Shown here: positions 21,922-35,969 of the stretch, one piece after another | Layout of the letters: each line of letters opens with the position of its first letter | Position numbering within the stretch: the first letter of the stretch is position 1 | DNA from: Candidatus Saccharimonadales bacterium | GTDB lineage: Bacteria > Patescibacteriota > Saccharimonadia > Saccharimonadales > DATKHC01 | NCBI GenBank assembly: GCA_038317055.1 | Contig: JBBQBA010000001.1 | Span: 88,153 to 152,152 of the forward strand | DNA length: 64,000 nt | Direction: 5' to 3' | Notes under the pieces: generated by a model | What the model was told of the DNA's origin: nothing | The model's input: the letters and a program-made list of their open reading frames with translations, nothing else | Databases searched by the model: none | Position numbers and translations under genes: made by a program

Positions 21922-22336
21922 TTACCTCAGGGTGGTTAGTCATAAAATCATCTAAAATATAACATGCCGCTAAACTGTCAATGTCTTCTTTATTATAATC
22001 TTTCTTGCTTTCTTCTAATGTTTCTTTTGCTCTAACTGAAGACAAAGCTTCATCTTCAAAATACATCGGAATATTAATCAAATCTTGGACACCATCTGAA
22101 AACTTTCTAACATATTGCGTTTGATCCGTTTCTTTTCCGTCAAGATTTCTAGGTAAACCAATTACTAAAATACCTATCGATTCTTCTTTTATTATTCTTT
22201 GAATATCGTCTAGGGTTTGATCTGAATGTATAAGGGTCTTAAAAGGACTAGAGAGTCTAGCAATAGAATTAGCTAGAGCTACACCCACCCTGCGTTCACC
22301 AACGTCCAGTGCAAGCATATTAAGGTTGGCTGCCAT
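21911..22336 (-). CDS. ruvX: Holliday junction resolvase-like / pre-16S rRNA nuclease RuvX (YqgF)
   Basis: 141 aa. LALDVGERRVGVALAN..., GLPRNLDG and DERLSS-like (DEALSS) motifs. Confidence 0.85.
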   Translation of the reverse strand: MAANLNMLALDVGERRVGVALANSIARLSSPFKTLIHSDQTLDDIQRIIKEESIGILVIGLPRNLDGKETDQTQYVRKFSDGVQDLINIPMYFEDEALSSVRAKETLEESKKDYNKEDIDSLAACYILDDFMTNHPEVIDD

Positions 22337-24074
22337 TTGCTTTTTCTATTACTACAGTTATTTTCTTAACATTCTTTGGAGTTTGAGTAACCCAAAAGGG
22401 GCTATATTTAATAGTTACATTTGTAACACCGGGTATTTGTGAAATCGTGCTTTTAATATCACCGCTTTTTTGGCCTGCAGATTGGGTTGTAATAGTCGCG
22501 GCATCTAATTTCGGGCCAACTGTAGCTGATGCTTGCATTGTTACTTGTGCAGATGCAGGTGTCGTTGATACTACTGTGAAGTTTGCGGTTGAAACACCAG
22601 TACCTAGAATAGATTGACTAGATGGATCTATTTGCTTATTCACGTTGTTTTTTACAAGTGTATTTAAATCACTCTGTTTTGCACCGTACATTGAATAAGT
22701 TACTGATTGAGTTACAGTAATTGAGTTAGCTTGAGCACCTAGTGGTGCACTTGGGGTGTTTATAGGAGCACCAGCAACATAGGTTTGAACTAAAGGCATA
22801 TATCCGGCAGAACTTAAACTAGATTCTAATTGCTGTTTTATTTGACCTGCATTAGGTGCAGCTATTTGACCTTGGGCAGAGGATATATCTGCAGCAGCAA
22901 CAACTTGTACGTTATTGCTAGATCCACCAGCCATTGCTGTTCCACTCATCTTGAAACCATTAATATCTCCATCAGAACTTGTGTAACTAGCAGAATCTGA
23001 GTTGTATGTATTTCCAACAGCAGCAGCAGCAACTGGTATACTTACAGTTTTGGTATTTAAACAATTATTTTTGAAAACTACACATCCAGGAAGAGTTTCG
23101 ACACTTGTACTACTATAGCTTTGGCCATTGCCGCTATTTACAAAGACTGTTCCTGAGGGAATATTCGTATCCGATGAACTTCCACCGTTAGTAACTGTTA
23201 CTGAGCCAGTAGCTGCAGTGCCGATTGTCTTTGTACCAGTTGTGTTTACCGAAGTTGATGTAGCAGTTTTTACTGAAGTCTGAAACTTAGCTGGCACAAC
23301 CATTTTAACCGGATCAAGATTTCCGTCTGCTTGCGAAAGCGTTAAGGATAAGTTGCTATTTACTGCCGATGTATTTGTTTGGACAATAATTTTAGCTTTT
23401 GGAAGAACTCTAAACCCTATTATATAAAACAGAATTAATAGAACAAAGATTCCAGCACCAATTAATAAGTTTCTTCGAAATTTATTAAAATCTGGCACTT
23501 TAGTTGGCTTACCGTTAAGGCCTTTAGCCTTTTTATCCTTCTTTGATTTTTTATCTTTTGAAGGTTTCGCATCTTTATCAATTTCACTAAGTCCCATTGG
23601 GTCGGCCGGTGTGTCATTATCTATTTGAATTGTATCTTCTGGCTCATTTCTTTTAGAAGCCACCGCACCAACAGCTGCCAAACCAGCTAATTCACCAATT
23701 GGCTTTTTCGAATCGAGTGGTATCTCGTCTTCTTCGTCATCAGTTCCATCTTCAAGATTTACTGGACCTTCATCTAAATCATCAATATTTGGATTAGGCG
23801 GAATTTCTGGTTTTGCTTGAAGACTTTTAGCAACATGCATACCAACAGCACCAGCTAGTGGCAGTAGTCCAGCTTCTGAAGTAACAAGAATTACACTTTT
23901 CTTTGCTTGTACAGATTTCTTCTTTAACAATTTCATGTTTACGACACTTTGAAAAACAGTTGCTCGCTTAGGCAAAACTAACGCAACAACTTTAGATTTG
24001 GAAGTGTTTACCTTGTCGATGACATTTGTAATTTCATCTTCAACATCAACGTAAATTACATCTTTATTGTTCAT
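22320..24074 (-). CDS. Hypothetical bitopic membrane protein (cytoplasmic N-domain, acidic/Lys-rich linker, TM, large S/T-rich extracytoplasmic domain)
   Basis: 584 aa with a TM helix at LLIGAGIFVLLILFYIIGF. The start overlaps the ftsA-like stop by 4 nt. No family recognised. Confidence 0.5.
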   Translation of the reverse strand: MNNKDVIYVDVEDEITNVIDKVNTSKSKVVALVLPKRATVFQSVVNMKLLKKKSVQAKKSVILVTSEAGLLPLAGAVGMHVAKSLQAKPEIPPNPNIDDLDEGPVNLEDGTDDEEDEIPLDSKKPIGELAGLAAVGAVASKRNEPEDTIQIDNDTPADPMGLSEIDKDAKPSKDKKSKKDKKAKGLNGKPTKVPDFNKFRRNLLIGAGIFVLLILFYIIGFRVLPKAKIIVQTNTSAVNSNLSLTLSQADGNLDPVKMVVPAKFQTSVKTATSTSVNTTGTKTIGTAATGSVTVTNGGSSSDTNIPSGTVFVNSGNGQSYSSTSVETLPGCVVFKNNCLNTKTVSIPVAAAAVGNTYNSDSASYTSSDGDINGFKMSGTAMAGGSSNNVQVVAAADISSAQGQIAAPNAGQIKQQLESSLSSAGYMPLVQTYVAGAPINTPSAPLGAQANSITVTQSVTYSMYGAKQSDLNTLVKNNVNKQIDPSSQSILGTGVSTANFTVVSTTPASAQVTMQASATVGPKLDAATITTQSAGQKSGDIKSTISQIPGVTNVTIKYSPFWVTQTPKNVKKITVVIEKANGSQP

Positions 24075-25366
24075 TTACGTAACATCCTATCTAATCTTTG
24101 CCTAACGGAACCTGCGTCTTTGCTGTTTTGTTGGAACATTGTATCAACTCCAACTCGTAATAAACCCATTGCTGTAATGTAGGTATGATCATTAACGGCG
24201 CCAGTTGCATCTGTTATTCCAATTACTTGATCGGGGTGAATATGTTGAACTTTGGGTTTTTTAGTAAATGGTAGTTCTTTATACCACTCGCTTCCTTCTA
24301 GTCTGTCCATGACTATGTCAAGACTTGAACCACCACCACAAAGAAGAAGCAAATTAGGTAGATGATCCAGTTTGTTAAACTCAGCTAGAGCAAGTTCAAC
24401 ACCACTTTCCCAAACATCGGTAGTTTTTAACAAAGAGCTTTCAACACTTTTTTCATACTTACTTGGTACAGTACCAACCGATAGTCCTAATTTTAATTTT
24501 TCAGCTTCTTCAAAATTAACATCAACTTCTCTTTCAATTCCTTTTGTAAAAGCTCTTCCACCAATTCCAAACATTTTCGTACCCTGAACACCACCCTCAT
24601 TTATTACAGCTATATCCGTAGTTCCACCACCAATATCCATTAAAATAGCGCTAATATTTGCATTTGGGTCATCACCAATTACTGATCTTGCGACTGCAAA
24701 TGGTTCAGCGGCAACAGCAAGTAAATCAAGATCTAATTCTTGAGCTGTTCGCTCTAATGCACCAATATGAATTAGTGGAGCAAATGCAGTGTAGAGTTGA
24801 ACTAATACTTCTTTACCCTGAAAACCAACTGGGTTTGTGACGTAATAACCATCAATATCAATACTCACTAATGCGCTGTTTACTAGTCTAATTTCTACCG
24901 ATTTACCACCTAGTTCCCAGGCTAATTGTTGTTTTGCTTTTTGTTCTGCTCTTTCTTGAACTAATGTAACAATTTGTTCAATCTCCGTAATATCAAGCGG
25001 TTTGTTTGGATTTTTACGAGTACATCTAACTGTTGTAGTTGTACCTTTAACGAGCTCACCGGCAATACCCAAAACAGCTGTTCTGGCACTTACACCAGCT
25101 TGTTGTTCAGCTTGATTTAGAGCATCGTCACAGTTTGATACAACTGAAGCAATATCCGAAATTGCTCCTGCTTGCATGTCTTGAAGTGACTGATGTGATC
25201 TACCGACACCAATAATTTGGACTTTGTTATCCGGATCAACTTTTGCTACCAGGGCCTTAACAAACTCAGTACCAATGTCTAGAGCAACAATGTACTGTTC
25301 GTCTTTTTTCCCTCCAGGTTTTTTAGAAGAAATTGTGTTAGATATATGTTTAAATTTCCCAAGCAT
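24071..25366 (-). CDS. ftsA: Actin-like ATPase, FtsA-like cell division protein
   Basis: 431 aa. Phosphate-1 (VALDIGTEFVKALV), phosphate-2/adenosine motifs (MDIGGGTTDIAV, LCGGGS). Length is typical of FtsA. Confidence 0.7.
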   Translation of the reverse strand: MLGKFKHISNTISSKKPGGKKDEQYIVALDIGTEFVKALVAKVDPDNKVQIIGVGRSHQSLQDMQAGAISDIASVVSNCDDALNQAEQQAGVSARTAVLGIAGELVKGTTTTVRCTRKNPNKPLDITEIEQIVTLVQERAEQKAKQQLAWELGGKSVEIRLVNSALVSIDIDGYYVTNPVGFQGKEVLVQLYTAFAPLIHIGALERTAQELDLDLLAVAAEPFAVARSVIGDDPNANISAILMDIGGGTTDIAVINEGGVQGTKMFGIGGRAFTKGIEREVDVNFEEAEKLKLGLSVGTVPSKYEKSVESSLLKTTDVWESGVELALAEFNKLDHLPNLLLLCGGGSSLDIVMDRLEGSEWYKELPFTKKPKVQHIHPDQVIGITDATGAVNDHTYITAMGLLRVGVDTMFQQNSKDAGSVRQRLDRMLRK

Positions 25367-28402: not shown

Positions 28403-29341
28403 TTACAAATCTTCCCCGCGCTGTAACTTCTTCCTGATCTCCGCCATACGATGTCGTGAACCCAAGAAAAATGACGAAATAAATGCAAAGAAAATTATAA
28501 ATAGAATAATGTATAAGGTTTGGTTAGTCAGCTTTATTCCTTTATTCGGTGCTGTCGTCGAAGCATTTAATTTACTCGAAGATGATTGACCAGCCGATCC
28601 ATTAGCGACTGCTACTAATTGTAGATACGACACATTGCCTTGGGTATCGGTAACTTTAATTAGTATCGAGTAAGTACCAGCCGAACTGTAGGTATGTTTA
28701 ATATTTAATGTTCCAGCACTTGCTTGGCTTAATAAATCGGTTGGTTTACCATCTCCCCAATCAACACTAATCGCATAAGGTGGTGCACCACCACTAATTG
28801 CTATCGGCCAACTTAATACAGATCCAGGACTAGCTCCTAGTTTGGCAAAGTTGCTTGTAAGAGTAATTCCTGGGCTTGAGCCAACATTGGGATTATTAAA
28901 AGTTACTGTTACGGTATTTGAATCAGGACCTTGTTGATCCAACGCATCATAATCTCGAACAATTAGCGTATTGGTCCCGTTGAATAAAGCCGTAGTTATT
29001 TTGAAGCTTCCATTACTACACTGAGCAGATCCAACAAATACTCCATTATCATATAATTTTAAAAGCAAGCTACCTTGACATATTCCCTGGACGGTTATTG
29101 GTAGAGTTGTGAATACCTGACCATTTGAAGGTGTACTAATTGTTGCTGCCGTACTCGGCGGAGGCGATTTAATCGTTCCTGATAAACCAACACCGGTACT
29201 TTGGGGATTAACTGGCGGAGGCGGAGTATAAGCATGTACTGGTGAAGTTGAAATTAGATAGATAAAAACCGACAATAAGAAGAAAGTTAATATCTTTAGC
29301 TGCCAGGGTATTAACCCATATAAATTATTTACAGTTTTCAT
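28403..29341 (-). CDS. Surface protein: signal peptide, Ig-like region, PKD domain, C-terminal TM anchor
   Basis: 312 aa. PKD signature ISVDWGDGKPTD...HTYSSAGTYSILIKVTDTQGN. C-terminal helix LYIILFIIFFAFISSFFLG followed by a basic tail. Confidence 0.6.
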   Translation of the reverse strand: MKTVNNLYGLIPWQLKILTFFLLSVFIYLISTSPVHAYTPPPPVNPQSTGVGLSGTIKSPPPSTAATISTPSNGQVFTTLPITVQGICQGSLLLKLYDNGVFVGSAQCSNGSFKITTALFNGTNTLIVRDYDALDQQGPDSNTVTVTFNNPNVGSSPGITLTSNFAKLGASPGSVLSWPIAISGGAPPYAISVDWGDGKPTDLLSQASAGTLNIKHTYSSAGTYSILIKVTDTQGNVSYLQLVAVANGSAGQSSSSKLNASTTAPNKGIKLTNQTLYIILFIIFFAFISSFFLGSRHRMAEIRKKLQRGEDL

Positions 29342-29417
29342 GCTTATTCTTTTTAGTCTAAAGCCTTAAGATAAGCTTACGCAAGTATATTTAAATAAGC
29401 TTGATTAATTTATGAAG

Positions 29418-30410
29418 TTATCTGACTCTTCTAAATTTTCGTGATCGCACTTTGTGGATGGTGTAATAGATTAGCGCAATAATAATTACAAGTAGTGCAA
29501 GAATTGCAATCTGTAACCAAACAGGAATATACCAAAAAGTTACTTTAGATACTATTAAATTACCACCTGATGTTCCGTAACTTATTGATGCAATAATCGT
29601 ATAGTGACCAATGTAGTTATGTTTAGGTAGGTTTTGAACAAACTTTCTAGTACTCCCAGGCAAGATACTTTTTCTCGGTTGACGGTTATTAAATTGAGTT
29701 ACTGATACAATTTTTCCGAACATATCTTTAACTTCGATCGATCCAAATGGTTGAGCATATATATTTCCAGTAACACTTAGTCTTAATAATGCTGATACTT
29801 GGCCGTTCGTGAAAAAAGTTGAAGGGTTTCCGCTTGCATCGGCTGCCGATAGTTGAACGAGACTAACCGCAGAAGTTAAATTGCCAGGTACAGTTATTAA
29901 AAATAATGTTCCAACACTTGCTGTAAGTCCGACATTAGCAGATCCTGTCGAACTAATAGTTGGAATAAAACGGATTGCTCCGTAATAACCTCCCGATAAT
30001 GCATCTTTGGAAACTGTTATAGGTACATTTACTATTACGCTTTGATTAGGAGGGATTGTAGTTTTTTGAACATTGCCAACTATAGATTTAAAGTTATTTG
30101 CAGGTATAGGAGTATTGCTATTTAGTACAAGTCTTGGTGTTCCGGTTTCGTCAGCACTTGCTACAAAATCATTTACTATTGGATTTGCAACAATTGCGTT
30201 GGCAGTTGGGTTAGCCACTGTTATAGGAATAGTTTGGCTAGTACCTTTGGCTACAGTTATCTCAGTTAATACCGGTGAAATCGAAAAACCATTTGGAGAA
30301 CCACCAATAGTTGCCGCTCGGGCAAGAGGACCATTTAGTCCAGCTGAAACAATACCCAGAAAAGCTACTATTGTTACAAATAAGCCTCTACGCATGGTCC
30401 TAATTAACAC
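29418..30410 (-). CDS. Cell-surface protein with DUF916/DUF3324-like (CscA-like) architecture: signal peptide, two beta-rich domains, C-terminal TM anchor
   Basis: 330 aa. N-terminal FSISPVLTEITVAKGTSQTIPITVANPT..., mid GGYYGAIRF, C-terminal helix WLQIAILALLVIIIALIYYTI + KVRSRKFRRVR. The assignment rests on architecture and motif resemblance only. Confidence 0.45.
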   Translation of the reverse strand: MLIRTMRRGLFVTIVAFLGIVSAGLNGPLARAATIGGSPNGFSISPVLTEITVAKGTSQTIPITVANPTANAIVANPIVNDFVASADETGTPRLVLNSNTPIPANNFKSIVGNVQKTTIPPNQSVIVNVPITVSKDALSGGYYGAIRFIPTISSTGSANVGLTASVGTLFLITVPGNLTSAVSLVQLSAADASGNPSTFFTNGQVSALLRLSVTGNIYAQPFGSIEVKDMFGKIVSVTQFNNRQPRKSILPGSTRKFVQNLPKHNYIGHYTIIASISYGTSGGNLIVSKVTFWYIPVWLQIAILALLVIIIALIYYTIHKVRSRKFRRVR

Positions 30411-30461
30411 TTATACCTCATATAAAACTATTAAATACAATGAATAAGCCTAGCATAGCAA

Positions 30462-31529
30462 TTAAAAATTGGCTAAGCAAATGAATATTATAGTAGTGGC
30501 ATAGACTCCTGCAGGTTGTCCGGATGGTACATTTACAAGATAGGATGCTGTGTATTCGGAATAATCAGAAGCATTGGCTGAAGACGCTATAGTGTCGCCA
30601 TTATTAAAAGTATAAAAATTTGATGTTCCATACCTGGATGTCGGTGTTCCAACACCATTTCCCACCTCTGATCCACCCACTTGGGGAATTGAGTTTGGGA
30701 CTAGATTTAGACCAAATTGTGGATTTCCGACTTTCGACGGGTTAGGGTTAGTGAGATTTGGAATTACATAATTACCGGAGGTCATAGTGTTACCGGAGAC
30801 CGTGATGTTGTAACCGTTTATTGCGTTTGTTGCAACAACAAACTGTGAAGTAGCGTCGCTAGTTGTATTGGAAGATAAATTCCCAAAATCAATTTGATCA
30901 CCTTGTGCACTACCACAATTTAGGTTAGTGACAGTAACGCCACCACAAAAAATCAAATACGGTGGAACTATGCTGCTTATATTAAGTTCAGAATTAATTT
31001 GAATTGCGATACCGCCATATTCAATGTTTGGTCCAGTACCATCCGTTGAACTAAATGTCTGAATTCGAACATAATATTGGCCCGGTGAAGTCGGATTAGT
31101 AATATTATCTAGTGTATATGTACTTGGACTTGAGTTTGGAATTGGTGCTGATGGATTAGTTAATAGAATTTGCCCACCAGAATTATCTGCCATGGTATAA
31201 CCAGGATTTCCTGTCTCGTTTGTATCTTCAACTGTTGCCGCTGAGACATCCATACCAGACGGAAAGGTACATGGAATACTTTGAAGTGGTGAATTATCAC
31301 AAAATTGAATTAGTATTGAACCGACATTTGTTGATGTATCTGAAAACGTAAAGCCAATTGTATGTTTAGCGACTACTCCAGCAGAGGAATTATTTAATTC
31401 ATCATAACGATTCAATACTTCTACACCCGCGTGTACGTCGGAAGTATTAAGACCAATTATTAGTACAACAGGTATTAATATAGCGGCTATAAAGAAATGT
31501 ACTTTTTGATAAGTAAGGTGTTTATACAT
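30462..31529 (-). CDS. Secreted protein, paralogous in its C-terminal half to the 265-aa neighbour (putative surface-fibre/complex subunit)
   Basis: 355 aa with a signal peptide. Shares PQFGLNLVPNS with the neighbour's EQFGMNLVKDT, and has a terminal beta-strand motif (PAGVYATTIIFICLANF vs PDGQYVFNDNLVVTAGY). Confidence 0.5.
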   Translation of the reverse strand: MYKHLTYQKVHFFIAAILIPVVLIIGLNTSDVHAGVEVLNRYDELNNSSAGVVAKHTIGFTFSDTSTNVGSILIQFCDNSPLQSIPCTFPSGMDVSAATVEDTNETGNPGYTMADNSGGQILLTNPSAPIPNSSPSTYTLDNITNPTSPGQYYVRIQTFSSTDGTGPNIEYGGIAIQINSELNISSIVPPYLIFCGGVTVTNLNCGSAQGDQIDFGNLSSNTTSDATSQFVVATNAINGYNITVSGNTMTSGNYVIPNLTNPNPSKVGNPQFGLNLVPNSIPQVGGSEVGNGVGTPTSRYGTSNFYTFNNGDTIASSANASDYSEYTASYLVNVPSGQPAGVYATTIIFICLANF

Positions 31530-31549
31530 GCAAGTTCATCCTTAGCAGG

Positions 31550-32347
31550 CTAATAACCTGCGGTGACAACCAAGTTATCATTAAAAACATACTGACCATC
31601 AGGCGTTGCGTTACTTATATTAAATATGTAGGATAAAACATAAATTGTTGAACTAGTGCTTTTTAGAGATTTTGCGATGATATCTCCATTAGTATATGAA
31701 TATTTATTAGTGGTTGCATAGTTTCCAAAAGCCGCACCATATGCGATATCGTTAGTCGGGTGTACGTTCGGATAAACTGTATTTTGCAAAGGATCAGCAC
31801 TAACAGGTGATGCTGTCGTAAGTGAAGCTGGTATGGTGTCTTTAACTAAATTCATACCGAATTGCTCTACCCCGACAGTTGGTGAAGTCGGTGTTGAATT
31901 AGTAGCAAAAGCATGGAACGGAGTAGTAATACTGGTAGGTGGAACTGAATTGGTTTGCACAATGTATCCAGAGGAATCCCAAGCTCTAACATAAAAGGTA
32001 CCAGTTCCGGTGGCAGTTGAGGCCGTACTAAGCACTCCAAGATTTAGATTAGCAGAAGTTACGACCGCTTCAAGAAATGGTGCAGCGGTAGTATCAAATC
32101 CAGCATGAGCTTGATAATTAGCACTTGTATAATTGCCCACCCCAGTTTCACCAATAGATACTTGAGCTTTATAGTTTGCGCTAGTACACGTCCCCGTAGG
32201 ATTACATCCACCTGATCCAAAAAACACCTGATTCGCGGAATAATTGGTAGATGTATATGTTGGAGTACCACCTGTAGCGAAAACCGGAATTGGAGTAATT
32301 AACGGTATAACTAAAAGAATGTACAGCAGTTTTATTTTTCTCAACAT
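31550..32347 (-). CDS. Secreted protein with three N-terminal TSxNYxA repeats (putative surface-fibre/complex subunit)
   Basis: 265 aa with signal peptide LLYILLVIPLITPIPVFA. Repeats are TSTNYSANQVFFGSGG / TSANYKAQVSIGETG / TSANYQAHAGFD. Ends in ...LVVTAGY. Confidence 0.5.
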   Translation of the reverse strand: MLRKIKLLYILLVIPLITPIPVFATGGTPTYTSTNYSANQVFFGSGGCNPTGTCTSANYKAQVSIGETGVGNYTSANYQAHAGFDTTAAPFLEAVVTSANLNLGVLSTASTATGTGTFYVRAWDSSGYIVQTNSVPPTSITTPFHAFATNSTPTSPTVGVEQFGMNLVKDTIPASLTTASPVSADPLQNTVYPNVHPTNDIAYGAAFGNYATTNKYSYTNGDIIAKSLKSTSSTIYVLSYIFNISNATPDGQYVFNDNLVVTAGY

Positions 32348-32465
32348 ATTCTAAGTGATATTTTGCATTAATTCTGGTCAAAAGACAATCTGTTTATGCT
32401 TCTTGCGAACTACTGTATTATTAAAACTTAAGCATATTGGTAATAATATATGTACGTAATAGAAT

Positions 32466-33509
32466 ATGAAGCCGCCAGTGAGTGAAGAAAAACCAAAAGA
32501 ACCGAACCCAACTTCAGCAAATGCTGTTATCTCTTCTAGTCCAGATTCTGATTCTGGTGAAAATAGTCTAGAAGATGCTCAAAGTAAGGATAATAGTTCT
32601 AGTACACCGACTAATGGGCAAAGTAATGAAACAGTACCAGAAAATGTAACTCCTACTAAAAAAGGATTTTTAAGTAAACTTTTAGTTATATATAAGAAGG
32701 TAGATATATATTTTCTTATTTTTATACTATTACTTGTTGTAGCTAGTATAATTGCCTACATTTCTATTCAAAAAAACCAGAATGCAAAAATTCCAAATAT
32801 ATCTTCACAATCACTAGATCAGGGTGCTTTAAAACAATTAAGCGGTAACGATACTCAGGTCGGTGGAACAAATCAGACATTAAATATTCAATCTAGTACT
32901 GTATTTAGTAATAATGTTCTTGCAAAAGGTAATCTTCAGGTTGCAGGTACACTAAAAATAGCAGGAGCATTAGTTTTGCCGGGTATAACAGTAACTGGTA
33001 TCTCAAGTTTAGGTCAGATAAATGCTGACACTCTAACCCTAACTGGTTCGGAAACCGTAAAAGGTCAATTAACCGCTAACCAAGGTTTGACTGTAAATGG
33101 CATCTCTTCGTTCGGTGGTGCAATAAATGCTCCGTCAATTAGTGTTTCAACTCTAGCGGTAAATGGTGACATAACATTCTCGCATCATATTTACGCAAAT
33201 GGCAGCATACCAAGAGTTGCTTCTGTCAGTGCTATAGGTTCAGGTGGAACGGTTTCACTTAGCGGTTCAGATAACGCAGGGAATGTAAATATAAATACTG
33301 GTTCTGGTGCGAGTGCGGGTTGTCTAGCGAATATTACTTTTTCCCAAAACTACACAGTAACTCCTTATATTCAGATCACACCAGTTGGCCAAGCGGCTGG
33401 TAATAACATTGGTTACTACATTACTCGTTCAACATCTGGTTTTAGTATTTGCGCAAACGCTCCACCATCAAACGCAGCAATGAGTTTTGATTACACGGTA
33501 ATTGGTTAG
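32466..33509 (+). CDS. Hypothetical membrane-anchored protein with low-complexity N-terminus and repetitive beta-helix-like ectodomain
   Basis: 347 aa. TM helix IYFLIFILLLVVASIIAYISI, then quasi-repeats (GNLQVAGTLKIAGALVLPGITVTGISSLGQINADTLTLTGSETVKGQLTANQGLTVNGISSFGG...). Confidence 0.45.
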   Translation: MKPPVSEEKPKEPNPTSANAVISSSPDSDSGENSLEDAQSKDNSSSTPTNGQSNETVPENVTPTKKGFLSKLLVIYKKVDIYFLIFILLLVVASIIAYISIQKNQNAKIPNISSQSLDQGALKQLSGNDTQVGGTNQTLNIQSSTVFSNNVLAKGNLQVAGTLKIAGALVLPGITVTGISSLGQINADTLTLTGSETVKGQLTANQGLTVNGISSFGGAINAPSISVSTLAVNGDITFSHHIYANGSIPRVASVSAIGSGGTVSLSGSDNAGNVNINTGSGASAGCLANITFSQNYTVTPYIQITPVGQAAGNNIGYYITRSTSGFSICANAPPSNAAMSFDYTVIG

Positions 33510-33799
33510 ACGTCTAAGAAAACAATTACCTGATTAGCTTTTACGTGCATTATAGCTTTAGAGTTTTTTATTAGGTGTTCACCCTGATTATCACGAACAT
33601 TTATTTCACCAGCATTTAATATAGTAATGAAATTATGGTGACCAGCTAAAACGTCAAACAATCCTGTATCATTTGTTGCCGTAACGCTATTAGCGACGCC
33701 ATCGTAATAGTTTTTAAATGGTGCGTAGATCTTAACGTAGATTTGTTCATTCTCAAGTTTAGGAATTTCTGTTTTTTTATCTTGGTCAGTTGCTTCCAT
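33506..33799 (-). CDS. atpC: F-type ATPase epsilon subunit, beta-sandwich only (no C-terminal helical hairpin)
   Basis: 97 aa, positioned after atpD. GLFDVLAGHHNFITIL... resembles the epsilon motif G.+GILPGH.P. The sequence stops at the end of the beta domain. Confidence 0.65.
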   Translation of the reverse strand: MEATDQDKKTEIPKLENEQIYVKIYAPFKNYYDGVANSVTATNDTGLFDVLAGHHNFITILNAGEINVRDNQGEHLIKNSKAIMHVKANQVIVFLDV

Positions 33800-33811
33800 A
33801 ATAGTTCTTTA

Positions 33812-35969
<2,158 letters not shown>

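What the first reader, a model, noticed from the sequence alone, without database searches (positions are those of the whole stretch)
28403..32347. Four-gene secreted-protein cluster with Csc/WxL-locus-like architecture in a reduced genome
Seen in sequence: four consecutive minus-strand genes all start with signal peptides.
- The 265-aa and 355-aa proteins are paralogous in their C-terminal halves. They share (E/P)QFG(M/L)NLV and a terminal strand with (D/A)G.Y followed by alternating hydrophobics to the very C-terminus.
- The 330-aa protein has two beta-rich domains and a C-terminal TM helix plus basic tail, as in DUF916/DUF3324 (CscA) proteins.
- The 312-aa protein has a PKD domain and the same C-terminal anchor type.

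Established knowledge: in Firmicutes, Csc/WxL loci combine DUF916/DUF3324 anchors with several small secreted subunits that assemble into surface complexes. Terminal G.Y beta-strands are typical of Ig-like fibre subunits.

Inference: this is a surface complex or fibre locus, plausibly relevant to host attachment if the organism is an epibiont. The homology is unverified and could instead represent a novel family.
Basis: partly seen in the sequence, partly recalled or inferred. Interest (0 to 1): 0.6.

Follow-up and report, generated by a model that had tools for sequence, protein, structure and literature searches.

The report
Minimal Pam pilus operon of Saccharibacteria
These four genes are a stripped-down copy of the recently described "Pam" surface-fibre system of ultrasmall CPR bacteria, and its membrane-anchored assembly protein turns out to be related to the WxL-interacting proteins of Gram-positive gut bacteria.

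Summary
There are four consecutive minus-strand genes (28403-32347), and all four products have signal peptides. The 265-aa and 355-aa proteins are paralogous in their C-terminal halves. The 330-aa and 312-aa proteins end in a membrane helix plus a basic tail.

The locus is a Pam pilus operon (NCBIfam; bioRxiv 10.64898/2026.03.03.709456):
- 312 aa: PamR, passing the equivalog cutoff.
- 355 aa and 265 aa: both carry the Pam pilin C-terminal domain. The 265-aa protein is PamT-like but below the equivalog cutoff.
- 330 aa: the membrane-anchored two-Ig-domain protein called a chaperone in that preprint.

Gene order is conserved in more than 30 metagenomic loci: ATP synthase, a divergent 347-aa gene, pamT, pilin(s), chaperone, pamR, mnmA. 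The window has the smallest version, with one pilin and one chaperone. One related contig shares that version.

The family matches Pfam WxLIP_PGBD in 54 of 55 members. It aligns to Firmicutes WxLIP at 96-99.5% hhalign probability. Its model's best solved-structure matches are E. faecium WxLIP crystal structures, followed by fimbrial chaperones. DUF3324, WxL and LPXTG signatures are absent, so it is not a Csc/WxL cluster.

It is a new member of a known kind. The WxLIP link is not mentioned in the preprint.

The parts
31550..32347 (-). PamT-like subunit (265 aa), the first gene of the operon. It has a signal peptide, a roughly 60-aa N-terminal module with three S-x-N-Y repeats, and a Pam pilin C-terminal domain. 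It is the putative distal cap.
   Evidence: NCBIfam NF058579 PamT scores 207.3 bits, below the cutoff of 240, while NF058581 scores 102.3 bits against a cutoff of 55. It is paralogous to the 355-aa protein. It occupies the same position in 21 related loci.
30462..31529 (-). Two-domain Pam pilin (355 aa), the only subunit here that has both a donor (linker) strand and an acceptor domain.
   Evidence: NF058581 scores 156.8 bits. The AlphaFold2 model has mean pLDDT 87.8. The family has at least 468 members of about 350 aa. The gene always lies directly upstream of the chaperone gene. Its best match in the two-chaperone loci is the pilin in the PamE position, at 175-184 bits.
30990..31427 (-). N-terminal beta-sandwich domain of the pilin (residues about 35-180), with the invariant pair C77/C87.
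   Evidence: Strands are assigned by DSSP on the model. Invariant columns come from the family alignment. A weak Pfam DUF2808 hit falls here.
30930..30968 (-). Linker or donor strand of the pilin, VPPYLIFCGGVTV (residues 188-200).
   Evidence: V188, P189, P190, C195 and C205 are invariant in 56 sequences. A strand is modelled at 192-197, directly after a low-confidence hinge at 183-187. This corresponds to the donated linker described for PamA and PamB.
30465..30917 (-). C-terminal Ig-like acceptor domain of the pilin (residues about 205-355), ending in the invariant F355.
   Evidence: The NF058581 match covers residues 209-355. Q271, F272, G273, N275, Y343 and F355 are invariant.
29418..30410 (-). 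Membrane-anchored two-Ig-domain chaperone-like protein of the PamC/PamD family, related to WxLIP/DUF916 (330 aa from GTG, probably 325 aa from the ATG at 30395).
   Evidence: Pfam PF06030 scores 24.5 bits, and 54 of 55 family members hit it. The model has pLDDT 88. The top Foldseek PDB hits are 9i1y and 9i25 (WxLIP), followed by the chaperones CfaA, CsuC and EcpB. hhalign against Firmicutes WxLIP gives 99.5% full length and 96.3% without the signal peptide and membrane helix.
29910..29936 (-). Candidate chaperone donor strand NVGLTASVG (residues 159-167), with alternating hydrophobic residues. It lies in the low-confidence segment between the two domains.
   Evidence: The motif is nearly invariant. 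It was picked as one of the two most conserved peptide patterns of the family. Mean pLDDT is 59-73 here. The assignment as donor strand is an inference.
28403..29341 (-). PamR (312 aa): signal peptide, a conserved N-terminal strand, Ig/PKD-type domains, and a C-terminal membrane helix with a basic tail. It is the putative terminator and membrane anchor.
   Evidence: NCBIfam NF058578 equivalog scores 355.8 bits against a cutoff of 300. Pfam PKD scores 23.7 against 23.5. The gene follows the chaperone gene in all loci with enough flank.
29153..29209 (-). N-terminal strand of mature PamR, NPQSTGVGLSGTIKSPPPS (residues 45-63), flanked by proline runs.
   Evidence: The family consensus is NPQ.G.VGLEGTI..PPP, with 70-90% column identity in 50 sequences. 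The preprint predicts that an N-terminal PamR strand inserts into the last pilin.
32466..33509 (+). Conserved, divergently transcribed neighbour (347 aa): disordered N-terminus, a membrane helix, beta-helix-like repeats and a conserved C-terminal domain. It is probably the 'tail fibre-like protein' of the preprint. Whether it belongs to the system is unproven.
   Evidence: It occupies the same position and orientation in 19 related loci. There is a weak Pfam Bactofilin hit at 19.3 bits and no PHROG hit. The preprint mentions the neighbour.
32443..32470 (-). Promoter-like site (TTCATA, 16 nt, TATTAT) about 95 nt upstream of the first gene. This is weak evidence only.
   Evidence: The consensus scan found it, but the number of sites in the region is not above the shuffled expectation.

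Best explanation
The four genes form a minimal operon of the Pam pilus system of Saccharimonadia (CPR/Patescibacteria).

Proposed mechanism:
1. All four products are exported through Sec.
2. The 330-aa protein stays in the membrane through its C-terminal helix. It acts as a chaperone, with a conserved strand (candidate NVGLTASVG) filling the open groove of the strand-deficient Ig-like C-terminal domain of a newly exported subunit.
3. The 265-aa PamT-like protein starts the fibre as the distal cap.
4. Copies of the 355-aa pilin are added one by one. The conserved linker strand (VPPYLIFC...) of one subunit replaces the chaperone strand in the C-terminal domain of its neighbour. This is donor-strand exchange.
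5. PamR ends growth by inserting its conserved N-terminal strand (VGLSGTI). Its C-terminal helix holds the fibre to the membrane.
6. No usher, sortase or ATPase is involved.

The fibre probably makes first contact with the host bacterium.

Shown here: the family identity of three proteins, the fold and homology of the fourth, the domain layout and conserved strands, and the conserved gene order.
Shown elsewhere, for PamA and PamB of Mycosynbacter amalyticus only: filament structure and donor-strand exchange by cryo-EM.
Inferred: the chaperone, cap and terminator roles, polymerisation of this particular pilin, and host binding.
For: - NCBIfam: PamR equivalog 355.8 bits against a cutoff of 300. 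The Pam pilin C-terminal domain model scores 156.8 and 102.3 bits against 55. PamT scores 207.3 bits over its full length.
- The preprint describes the same component set and the same neighbourhood of ATP synthase genes plus a tail-fibre-like gene.
- The pilin model shows an N-terminal beta-sandwich, a hinge, a strand at 192-197 and a C-terminal domain. The linker residues and the end of the C-terminal domain are invariant.
- The chaperone model has two Ig-like domains and a membrane helix. Its Foldseek PDB hits are WxLIP 9i1y (E 1.3e-10) and 9i25, the latter deposited as WxLIP bound to long WxL, followed by the chaperones CfaA, CsuC and EcpB.
- hhalign against Firmicutes WxLIP gives probability 99.5% (E 3e-21) full length and 96.3% (E 2e-9) without the signal peptide and membrane helix.
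- Published AlphaFold2 work predicts that a WxLIP strand completes the WxL beta-sandwich.
- The N-terminal strand of PamR is conserved.
- Gene order is conserved in more than 30 loci, and the same four-gene form occurs in L153.
Against: - The experimentally resolved shaft pilins, PamA-type (about 490-550 aa) and PamB-type, and a second chaperone are absent from the window. The only two-domain pilin matches the PamE position, which the preprint models as a basal adaptor. A long fibre is therefore not guaranteed.
- PamT is below its equivalog cutoff.
- No NCBIfam model hit the 330-aa protein, and no Pfam PapD-type chaperone model appeared among its hits at E<=1.
- Whole-chain Foldseek of the pilin returns only generic two-Ig adhesins at TM about 0.2.
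- No solved structure matches by sequence.
- The chaperone, cap and terminator roles rest on AlphaFold predictions in a preprint, without genetics.
- No complex prediction could be run here.
- Only 64 kb of the genome was seen.
Confidence: 0.8

Rival explanations
1. The locus forms a non-filamentous, Csc/WxL-type surface complex. The WxLIP-like 330-aa protein simply holds the two subunits at the cell surface by strand insertion. At most a short stub of cap, adaptor and anchor forms, rather than a polymer. This would fit the loss of the PamA-type and PamB-type shaft pilins.
For: - The chaperone is homologous to WxLIP, which the literature interprets as a WxL-anchoring scaffold.
- The window and L153 lack every extra pilin that other loci carry.
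- The retained pilin is the PamE-position type.
Against: - The 355-aa pilin keeps the invariant linker strand and acceptor domain needed for self-polymerisation.
- It is the one pilin present in every locus.
- The Pam pilin C-terminal domain model was built on filament-forming proteins.
Confidence: 0.13
2. The locus is a variant of a classical pilus pathway, either chaperone-usher or sortase-dependent, whose missing parts lie elsewhere in the genome.
For: - The chaperone model resembles CfaA, CsuC and EcpB.
- The pilin hits include CfaE-CfaB and PapG at low rank.
Against: - No ORF of usher size lies in or beside the locus, and related loci carry only pilin-sized genes between pamT and pamR.
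- The weak PapC_C hit in the 347-aa neighbour scores 16 bits against a cutoff of 27.
- None of the four proteins ends in an LPXTG motif (sequence).
- The chaperone is membrane-anchored.
- The donor strand is internal, not an N-terminal extension.
Confidence: 0.03
3. The four genes are unrelated secreted or envelope proteins that are adjacent by chance, with no joint function.
For: No expression or interaction data exist for this organism.
Against: - Order and orientation are conserved in more than 30 loci down to about 35% identity.
- Two of the genes are paralogous.
- The family models were defined on a pilus operon.
Confidence: 0.02

Closest known systems
Pam pilus system of Candidatus Mycosynbacter amalyticus (PamA, B, C, D, E, T, R; bioRxiv 10.64898/2026.03.03.709456; NCBIfam NF058578, NF058579, NF058581)
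   Same: - PamR passes the equivalog model.
- The Pam pilin C-terminal domain is present in two proteins.
- The pilin has the same layout: N-terminal beta-sandwich, conserved linker strand, C-terminal domain.
- The chaperone-like protein has two Ig-like domains and a C-terminal membrane helix.
- The neighbourhood is the same: ATP synthase genes and a tail-fibre-like gene.
- The operon order runs T, pilin(s), chaperone, R.
   Different: - This locus has four genes instead of seven. It has no PamA-size pilin, no second pilin-chaperone pair and a single chaperone.
- In metagenomic loci with two chaperones, the window's chaperone is closer to the one in the PamC position (179-196 bits) than to the one in the PamD position (87-105 bits). 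Its pilin is closest to the PamE-position pilin.
- The PamT-like protein carries an extra N-terminal S-x-N-Y repeat module and falls below the equivalog cutoff.
- The M. amalyticus sequences themselves could not be retrieved for direct comparison.
Csc/WxL clusters of Firmicutes: WxLIP (CscA; DUF916 + DUF3324 + membrane helix), a short and a long WxL protein (CscB, CscC) and an LPXTG protein (CscD). Hassan et al. 2023, PMC10599100; PDB 9i1y and 9i25.
   Same: - The 330-aa protein is homologous to WxLIP, by sequence in the first domain and by structure over both domains plus the membrane helix.
- The four-part logic is the same: one membrane-anchored two-Ig protein, one short and one long subunit sharing a C-terminal domain, and one small anchored protein.
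- In both systems a strand from the two-Ig protein is predicted to complete the beta-sandwich of the subunit.
   Different: - No WxL domain was detected (Pfam, and hhalign probability below 5%).
- No DUF3324 signature was detected.
- The anchor is a membrane helix, not LPXTG.
- Pam subunits polymerise through an internal linker strand, whereas WxL proteins are not known to polymerise.
- The host phylum is different.
Chaperone-usher pili of Gram-negative bacteria (Pap/Fim, class 5 CFA/I, archaic Csu, Ecp)
   Same: - Subunits are strand-deficient Ig-like domains joined by donor-strand exchange.
- The chaperone has two Ig-like domains. Foldseek hits to CfaA, CsuC and EcpB have E values from 5e-9 to 2e-6.
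- The subunits end in a conserved aromatic residue.
   Different: - There is no usher and no outer membrane.
- The chaperone is tethered to the membrane.
- The donor strand is an inter-domain linker rather than an N-terminal extension.
- Each pilin has an extra N-terminal domain, and the fibre is linear rather than coiled.
- No Pfam fimbrial or PapD model is hit.
RbmA (Vibrio cholerae biofilm matrix protein), the fold reference for PamR
   Same: It consists of tandem FnIII/Ig-like domains. The preprint reports this similarity for PamR.
   Different: - PamR adds an N-terminal strand, a PKD-type motif and a C-terminal membrane helix.
- PamR was not modelled here.
- RbmA appeared only among the hits of the chaperone model.

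Membership tests
Pam pilus system (CPR) | PamR: match to the NCBIfam equivalog NF058578 at or above its cutoff | tested here: met
   355.8 bits against a cutoff of 300, covering residues 18-308.
Pam pilus system (CPR) | Pilin(s) carrying the Pam pilin C-terminal domain (NF058581) | tested here: met
   The 355-aa protein scores 156.8 bits and the 265-aa protein 102.3 bits, against a cutoff of 55.
Pam pilus system (CPR) | PamT: match to the NCBIfam equivalog NF058579 at or above its cutoff | tested here: not met
   207.3 bits against a cutoff of 240, although the alignment is full length. The protein is therefore called 'PamT-like'.
Pam pilus system (CPR) | Two-domain pilin: N-terminal beta-sandwich, conserved linker (donor) strand and strand-deficient C-terminal Ig-like domain | tested here: met
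   The AlphaFold2 model has pLDDT 87.8, with a hinge at 183-187 and a strand at 192-197. V188, P189, P190, C195 and C205 are invariant.
Pam pilus system (CPR) | Chaperone-like protein with two Ig-like domains, PapD/FimC-like, with a C-terminal membrane helix (PamC/PamD) | tested here: met
   Fold hits to the fimbrial chaperones CfaA, CsuC and EcpB are. A direct comparison with the PamC and PamD sequences was not possible.
Pam pilus system (CPR) | Conserved neighbourhood: ATP synthase genes and a tail-fibre-like gene beside the operon | tested here: met
   The window has atpD and atpC at 33506-35119 and the 347-aa gene. The same layout is seen in L001, L093, L104-L147, L151 and L153.
Pam pilus system (CPR) | Major shaft pilins of the PamA and PamB types | tested here: not met
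   The window has no further Pam-domain ORF, and only 20 bp separate the two subunit genes. Other loci carry 1-5 extra pilins. The rest of the genome was not seen.
Pam pilus system (CPR) | Filament assembled by donor-strand exchange | not testable with these tools
   This needs multimer prediction or cryo-EM. It has been shown only for PamA and PamB of M. amalyticus.
Csc/WxL cluster (Firmicutes) | WxLIP N-terminal domain (DUF916, Pfam PF06030) at the gathering threshold | tested here: not met
   This protein scores 24.5 bits against 27.3. However, 54 of 55 family members hit at E<=0.01, with a best E of 9e-12.
Csc/WxL cluster (Firmicutes) | Profile-level and structural homology of the two-Ig protein to WxLIP | tested here: met
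   hhalign gives 99.5% full length, 96.3% for the core and 96.9% for domain 1. The top Foldseek hits are 9i1y_A and 9i25_C. A bona fide Enterococcus WxLIP matches those two entries at about 5e-43, which confirms them as WxLIP.
Csc/WxL cluster (Firmicutes) | WxLIP second domain (DUF3324, Pfam PF11797) | tested here: not met
   0 of 55 members hit it. hhalign of domain 2 alone is not significant. Control WxLIPs hit it at 5e-45 and 4e-51.
Csc/WxL cluster (Firmicutes) | At least two WxL-domain proteins (Pfam PF13731) in the cluster | tested here: not met
   No hit appeared at E<=1. hhalign of the Pam C-terminal domain against the WxL domain gives probability 0.4-4.5%. Control WxL proteins hit at 1e-65 to 4e-70. 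The two folds could not be compared structurally.
Csc/WxL cluster (Firmicutes) | Small LPXTG-anchored protein (CscD) | tested here: not met
   No LPXTG motif is present. PamR ends in a membrane helix and a basic tail.
Chaperone-usher pili | Outer-membrane usher gene in the operon | tested here: not met
   No ORF of usher size lies in or next to the locus. The PapC_C hit in the 347-aa protein scores only 16.3 bits against 27.
Chaperone-usher pili | Match of the chaperone or the subunits to Pfam PapD-type chaperone or fimbrial subunit models | tested here: not met
   No such family appeared among the Pfam hits at E<=1 for any of the four proteins. The similarity is at the fold level only.
Sortase-dependent Gram-positive pili | LPXTG sorting signals on the pilins and a pilin-specific sortase in the locus | tested here: not met
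   The pilins end in ...CLANF and ...TAGY. There is no sortase-size gene in the operon.

The most novel reading that the evidence does not exclude
Pam pili of CPR bacteria and the Csc/WxL clusters of Firmicutes may be two branches of one ancient, usher-less, monoderm assembly pathway. In this pathway a membrane-tethered two-Ig-domain protein (PamC/D or WxLIP) complements strand-deficient subunits.

Under this reading:
- WxL proteins would be donor-strand-complemented, and possibly polymerising, subunits.
- The short strand found after the signal peptide in small WxL proteins (Y.SNG.I.F, followed by a proline-rich spacer) would act as the donor strand.
- A similar strand in CscD-like LPXTG proteins (.VG[IL][TS]F) would play the terminator and anchor role assigned to the N-terminal strand of PamR.

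The homology of the two-Ig protein is well supported here. The homology of the subunits is not shown.
Probability: 0.3. Interest if true: 0.75.

Novelty: new member of a known kind. Interest (0 to 1): 0.45.

Why it matters
- Pam pili were described only in 2026. They are thought to be how some ultrasmall parasitic bacteria first touch their hosts.
- This locus shows how small the system can get: one cap, one pilin, one chaperone and one anchor. It also identifies the pilin type that is never lost. That makes it a simple target for reconstitution and for genetics in cultivable Saccharibacteria.
- The assembly protein belongs to the same superfamily as WxLIP/DUF916. This connects an unexplained but widespread and virulence-linked gene cluster of enterococci, listeriae and lactobacilli to a system with a solved filament structure. 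It gives the WxL field a concrete, testable mechanism.

Tried and rejected
- Sequence searches of all four proteins and of two family profiles against PDB chains found nothing meaningful.
- Whole-chain Foldseek of the pilin model against the PDB gave only generic two-Ig adhesins at TM about 0.2. It could neither support nor exclude similarity to the WxL chain of 9i25.
- hhalign of the Pam C-terminal domain against the WxL domain was not significant, even with a broadened 158-domain profile.
- I noticed a shared C-terminal motif (VP..G.Y.T.L.[WFY]) and considered it evidence for homology. I rejected it because the cross-family HMM hits go to the chaperones and WxLIPs instead. The motif is therefore a generic Ig G-strand pattern.
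- PHROGs gave nothing for the 347-aa neighbour.
- The promoter and terminator scan was not above chance.
- Rfam found only tRNAs in the window.
- The Southlakia Tn-seq paper mentions neither DUF916 nor WxL.
- Chaperone-usher and sortase pilus readings were rejected for lack of an usher, a sortase or LPXTG motifs.

Full report
**1. Observation**

- 31550-32347: 265 aa
- 30462-31529: 355 aa
- 29418-30410: 330 aa from a GTG. The public copy of this protein is 325 aa, which implies the ATG at 30395.
- 28403-29341: 312 aa

The gaps between them are 20, 51 and 76 bp.

Each N-terminus reads as a Sec signal peptide. The 330-aa and 312-aa proteins end in a hydrophobic helix followed by a basic tail.

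The C-terminal halves of the 265-aa and 355-aa proteins are paralogous. BLASTP gives 28% identity over 153 aa with E 2e-9. The quoted motifs are present. No other paralogue lies in the window.

**2. What the locus is**

NCBIfam gives a direct identification.

| Protein | Model | Score (bits) | Cutoff (bits) |
|---|---|---|---|
| 312 aa | NF058578, 'pilus system RbmA-like protein PamR' (equivalog) | 355.8 | 300 |
| 355 aa | NF058581, 'Pam pilus system pilin subunit' (C-terminal domain) | 156.8 | 55 |
| 265 aa | NF058581 | 102.3 | 55 |
| 265 aa | NF058579, PamT (equivalog), aligned full length | 207.3 | 240 |

These models derive from a 2026 preprint (bioRxiv 10.64898/2026.03.03.709456). That work solved filaments of Candidatus Mycosynbacter amalyticus by cryo-EM.
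[quoted passage not shown] They are joined by donor-strand exchange through the linker.
- From AlphaFold predictions, the authors proposed membrane-anchored PapD/FimC-like chaperones (PamC, PamD), a further pilin (PamE), a cap (PamT) and an RbmA-like terminator and anchor (PamR).
- They note that ATP synthase genes and a 'tail fibre-like' gene are conserved neighbours.

The window has exactly that neighbourhood. atpC and atpD lie at 33506-35119, and a divergent 347-aa gene lies at 32466-33509.

**3. The pilin**

The 355-aa family is large, with at least 468 clusters, almost all about 350 aa long.

An AlphaFold2 model built from 56 sequences has mean pLDDT 87.8. It shows four elements in order:
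- an N-terminal beta-sandwich at residues 39-179;
- a low-confidence hinge at 183-187;
- a strand at 192-197;
- a C-terminal beta domain at 224-353.

The invariant columns cluster in the linker (V188, P189, P190, C195, C205) and in the C-terminal domain (Q271, F272, G273, N275, Y343, F355). This matches the preprint's statement that the donated linker and its binding site are the most conserved regions.

**4.

- Pfam gives this protein a sub-threshold hit to WxLIP_PGBD (DUF916, PF06030), at 24.5 bits against 27.3.
- 54 of 55 family members hit that model at E<=0.01, with a best E of 9e-12. Some public records already call them DUF916 or WxL-interacting proteins.
- The model has pLDDT 88. It has two beta-sandwich domains and a C-terminal helix at 297-327.
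- The best Foldseek matches in the PDB are 9i1y_A ('WxLIP from Enterococcus faecium', E 1.3e-10) and 9i25_C ('WxLIP ... bound to long WxL'). The fimbrial chaperones CfaA, CsuC and EcpB follow, and RbmA also appears.

To test homology properly, I fetched 68 Firmicutes loci through the published WxLIP motif NQIDKxxxYFDLK. Controls confirmed them as genuine WxL clusters: PF06030 plus PF11797, PF13731 and an LPXTG protein. One of these WxLIPs matches 9i25_C and 9i1y_A at about 5e-43.

hhalign of the Pam chaperone family against these WxLIPs gave the following results.

| Region compared | Probability | E-value |
|---|---|---|
| Full length | 99.5% | 2.9e-21 |
| Without signal peptide and membrane helix | 96.3% | 1.7e-9 |
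| Domain 1 alone | 96.9% | 1.7e-10 |
| Domain 2 alone | not significant | - |

No member hits DUF3324. The first domain is therefore homologous to DUF916. The overall two-domain-plus-helix architecture matches WxLIP structurally. The second domain is not recognisably DUF3324.

The preprint does not mention WxL, DUF916 or Csc. No paper in the searched library links them.

Hassan et al. 2023 (PMC10599100) predicted that a WxLIP strand completes the WxL beta-sandwich. This is the same logic the preprint proposes for the Pam chaperones.

**5. Are the subunits WxL proteins?**

This is not shown.
- Pfam WxL is not hit.
- hhalign of the Pam C-terminal domain against the WxL domain gives probabilities of 0.4-4.5%, even with a 158-domain profile.
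- A tempting shared C-terminal motif proved generic. The cross-family HMM hits go to the chaperones and WxLIPs rather than to the subunits.
- A structural comparison with the WxL chain of 9i25 could not be made. Only whole-chain Foldseek was available, and it returned generic two-Ig adhesins. The other libraries were offline.

**6. Conservation and what is special here**

A metagenome scan with the chaperone profile gave 80 loci. In every locus with enough flank, the order is: atpD, atpC, the 347-aa homologue on the opposite strand, pamT, one to five extra pilins of about 380-550 aa, the pilin of about 355 aa, the chaperone, pamR, mnmA and often alaS.

The window has no extra pilin. Only 20 bp separate the two subunit genes. 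The four-gene form is not an artefact, because a related 56-kb contig (L153) has the same arrangement. A closer relative (L151) has one extra 420-aa pilin.

Loci with two chaperones (L124, L135, L141) mirror the M. amalyticus order inferred from the accession numbers: T, A, E, D, R, B, C. In these loci:
- the window's pilin is closest to the E-position pilin (175-184 bits);
- the window's chaperone is closer to the C-position chaperone (179-196 bits) than to the D-position one (87-105 bits).

This orthology is positional inference. The M. amalyticus sequences could not be retrieved.

**7. Conserved strands and mechanism**

Three conserved strands with alternating hydrophobic residues are candidates for occupying the same acceptor groove:
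- the pilin linker VPPYLIFCGGVTV;
- the chaperone motif NVGLTASVG at 159-167, which is nearly invariant, was chosen as one of the two most conserved peptides of the family, and sits in a low-confidence inter-domain segment;
- the mature PamR N-terminus NPQSTGVGLSGTIKSPPPS, with family consensus NPQ.G.VGLEGTI..PPP.

From these I infer the following sequence of events:
1. Sec exports the subunits.
2. The membrane-tethered chaperone caps the pilin groove.
3. The PamT-like subunit caps the distal end.
4. The pilin linker drives donor-strand exchange.
5. The PamR strand terminates growth, and its helix anchors the fibre.

Only the general principle is experimentally shown, and only for PamA and PamB. 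The remaining steps are inference.

**8. Rivals**

- Because the shaft pilins PamA and PamB are absent, the product could be a short cap-adaptor-anchor stub or a WxL-like surface complex rather than a long fibre (confidence about 0.13). Against this, the retained pilin has everything needed to self-polymerise, and it is the universally kept pilin.
- Classical chaperone-usher or sortase pili are excluded by the lack of an usher, a sortase or LPXTG motifs.
- Chance adjacency is excluded by the conserved gene order.

**9. Novelty and score**

The locus is a new, minimal member of a system that is already described and already modelled in NCBIfam. The finding itself is therefore of moderate interest.

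The part not in the literature I could search is the homology of the Pam chaperone family to WxLIP/DUF916. It also suggests that the enigmatic WxL clusters work by strand complementation.

In the Firmicutes loci, small WxL proteins and CscD-like LPXTG proteins begin with a short strand followed by a proline-rich spacer. This pattern resembles a donor strand. It is a lead, not a result.

Noticed in passing
window 32466-33509 (+): A divergently transcribed 347-aa gene encodes a protein with a disordered, acidic, Ser-rich N-terminus, one membrane helix (about residues 79-101), beta-helix-like repeats (weak Pfam Bactofilin hit, 19 bits) and a conserved C-terminal domain (YYI.RST..FSIC, FDY). It keeps the same position and orientation in 19 related loci. 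It is probably the preprint's 'tail fibre-like protein'. Its role is unknown.
   Followed up: partly
window 32093-32260 (-), residues 30-85 of the 265-aa protein: The PamT-like protein has a conserved N-terminal module of about 60 aa, with three S-x-N-Y-x-A repeats and a Cys pair. The module is missing from the shorter (185 aa) PamT of the two-chaperone loci. It could be a tip or adhesin element.
   Followed up: partly
window 30395-30410 (-): The 330-aa ORF starts at a GTG. The public database copy (P0001) is 325 aa, which implies that the ATG five codons downstream is the real start.
   Followed up: no
L003-L070 (Firmicutes WxL loci), e.g. L005 5720-7274, L048 4750-5097, L003 7219-7770: Small WxL proteins begin, after the signal peptide, with a short strand (Y.SNG.I.F) followed by a proline-rich spacer. 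CscD-like LPXTG proteins begin with a similar strand (.VG[IL][TS]F). The N-terminus of the L003 LPXTG protein weakly hits the start of the Pfam WxL model. This looks like an N-terminal donor strand and parallels the N-terminal strand of PamR.
   Followed up: partly
L124, L135, L141 (metagenome loci): Some loci carry a second pilin-chaperone pair downstream of pamR, mirroring the seven-gene M. amalyticus layout. The window's chaperone is closer to this second (PamC-position) chaperone than to the one next to the PamE-type pilin.
   Followed up: partly
L153 6001-9107 and L151 4719-9143: Among the closest relatives (56-60% identity), one has the same four-gene operon as the window and another has an extra 420-aa pilin. 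Pilin gene number therefore changes on short evolutionary scales.
   Followed up: partly
Firmicutes and CPR locus ORF sets: The Pam pilin C-terminal-domain HMM scores best on Firmicutes WxLIPs (E 0.004-0.14). The WxL HMM scores best on Pam chaperones (E 0.02-0.3). Neither scores best on the other system's subunits. The cause is either a generic Ig strand motif or shared ancestry of the chaperone and subunit domains.
   Followed up: no
window 22320-25366 (-): A 584-aa ORF with no Pfam hit overlaps by 4 bp the end of an FtsA/PilM-like gene (24071-25366). The FtsA/PilM-like gene recurs in the same position, downstream of alaS, in L151 and L153.
   Followed up: no
one search hit list: A few chaperone homologues in NCBI sit in MAGs labelled Candidatus Binatia or Verrucomicrobiae. 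These are probably mis-binned Saccharimonadia contigs.
   Followed up: no
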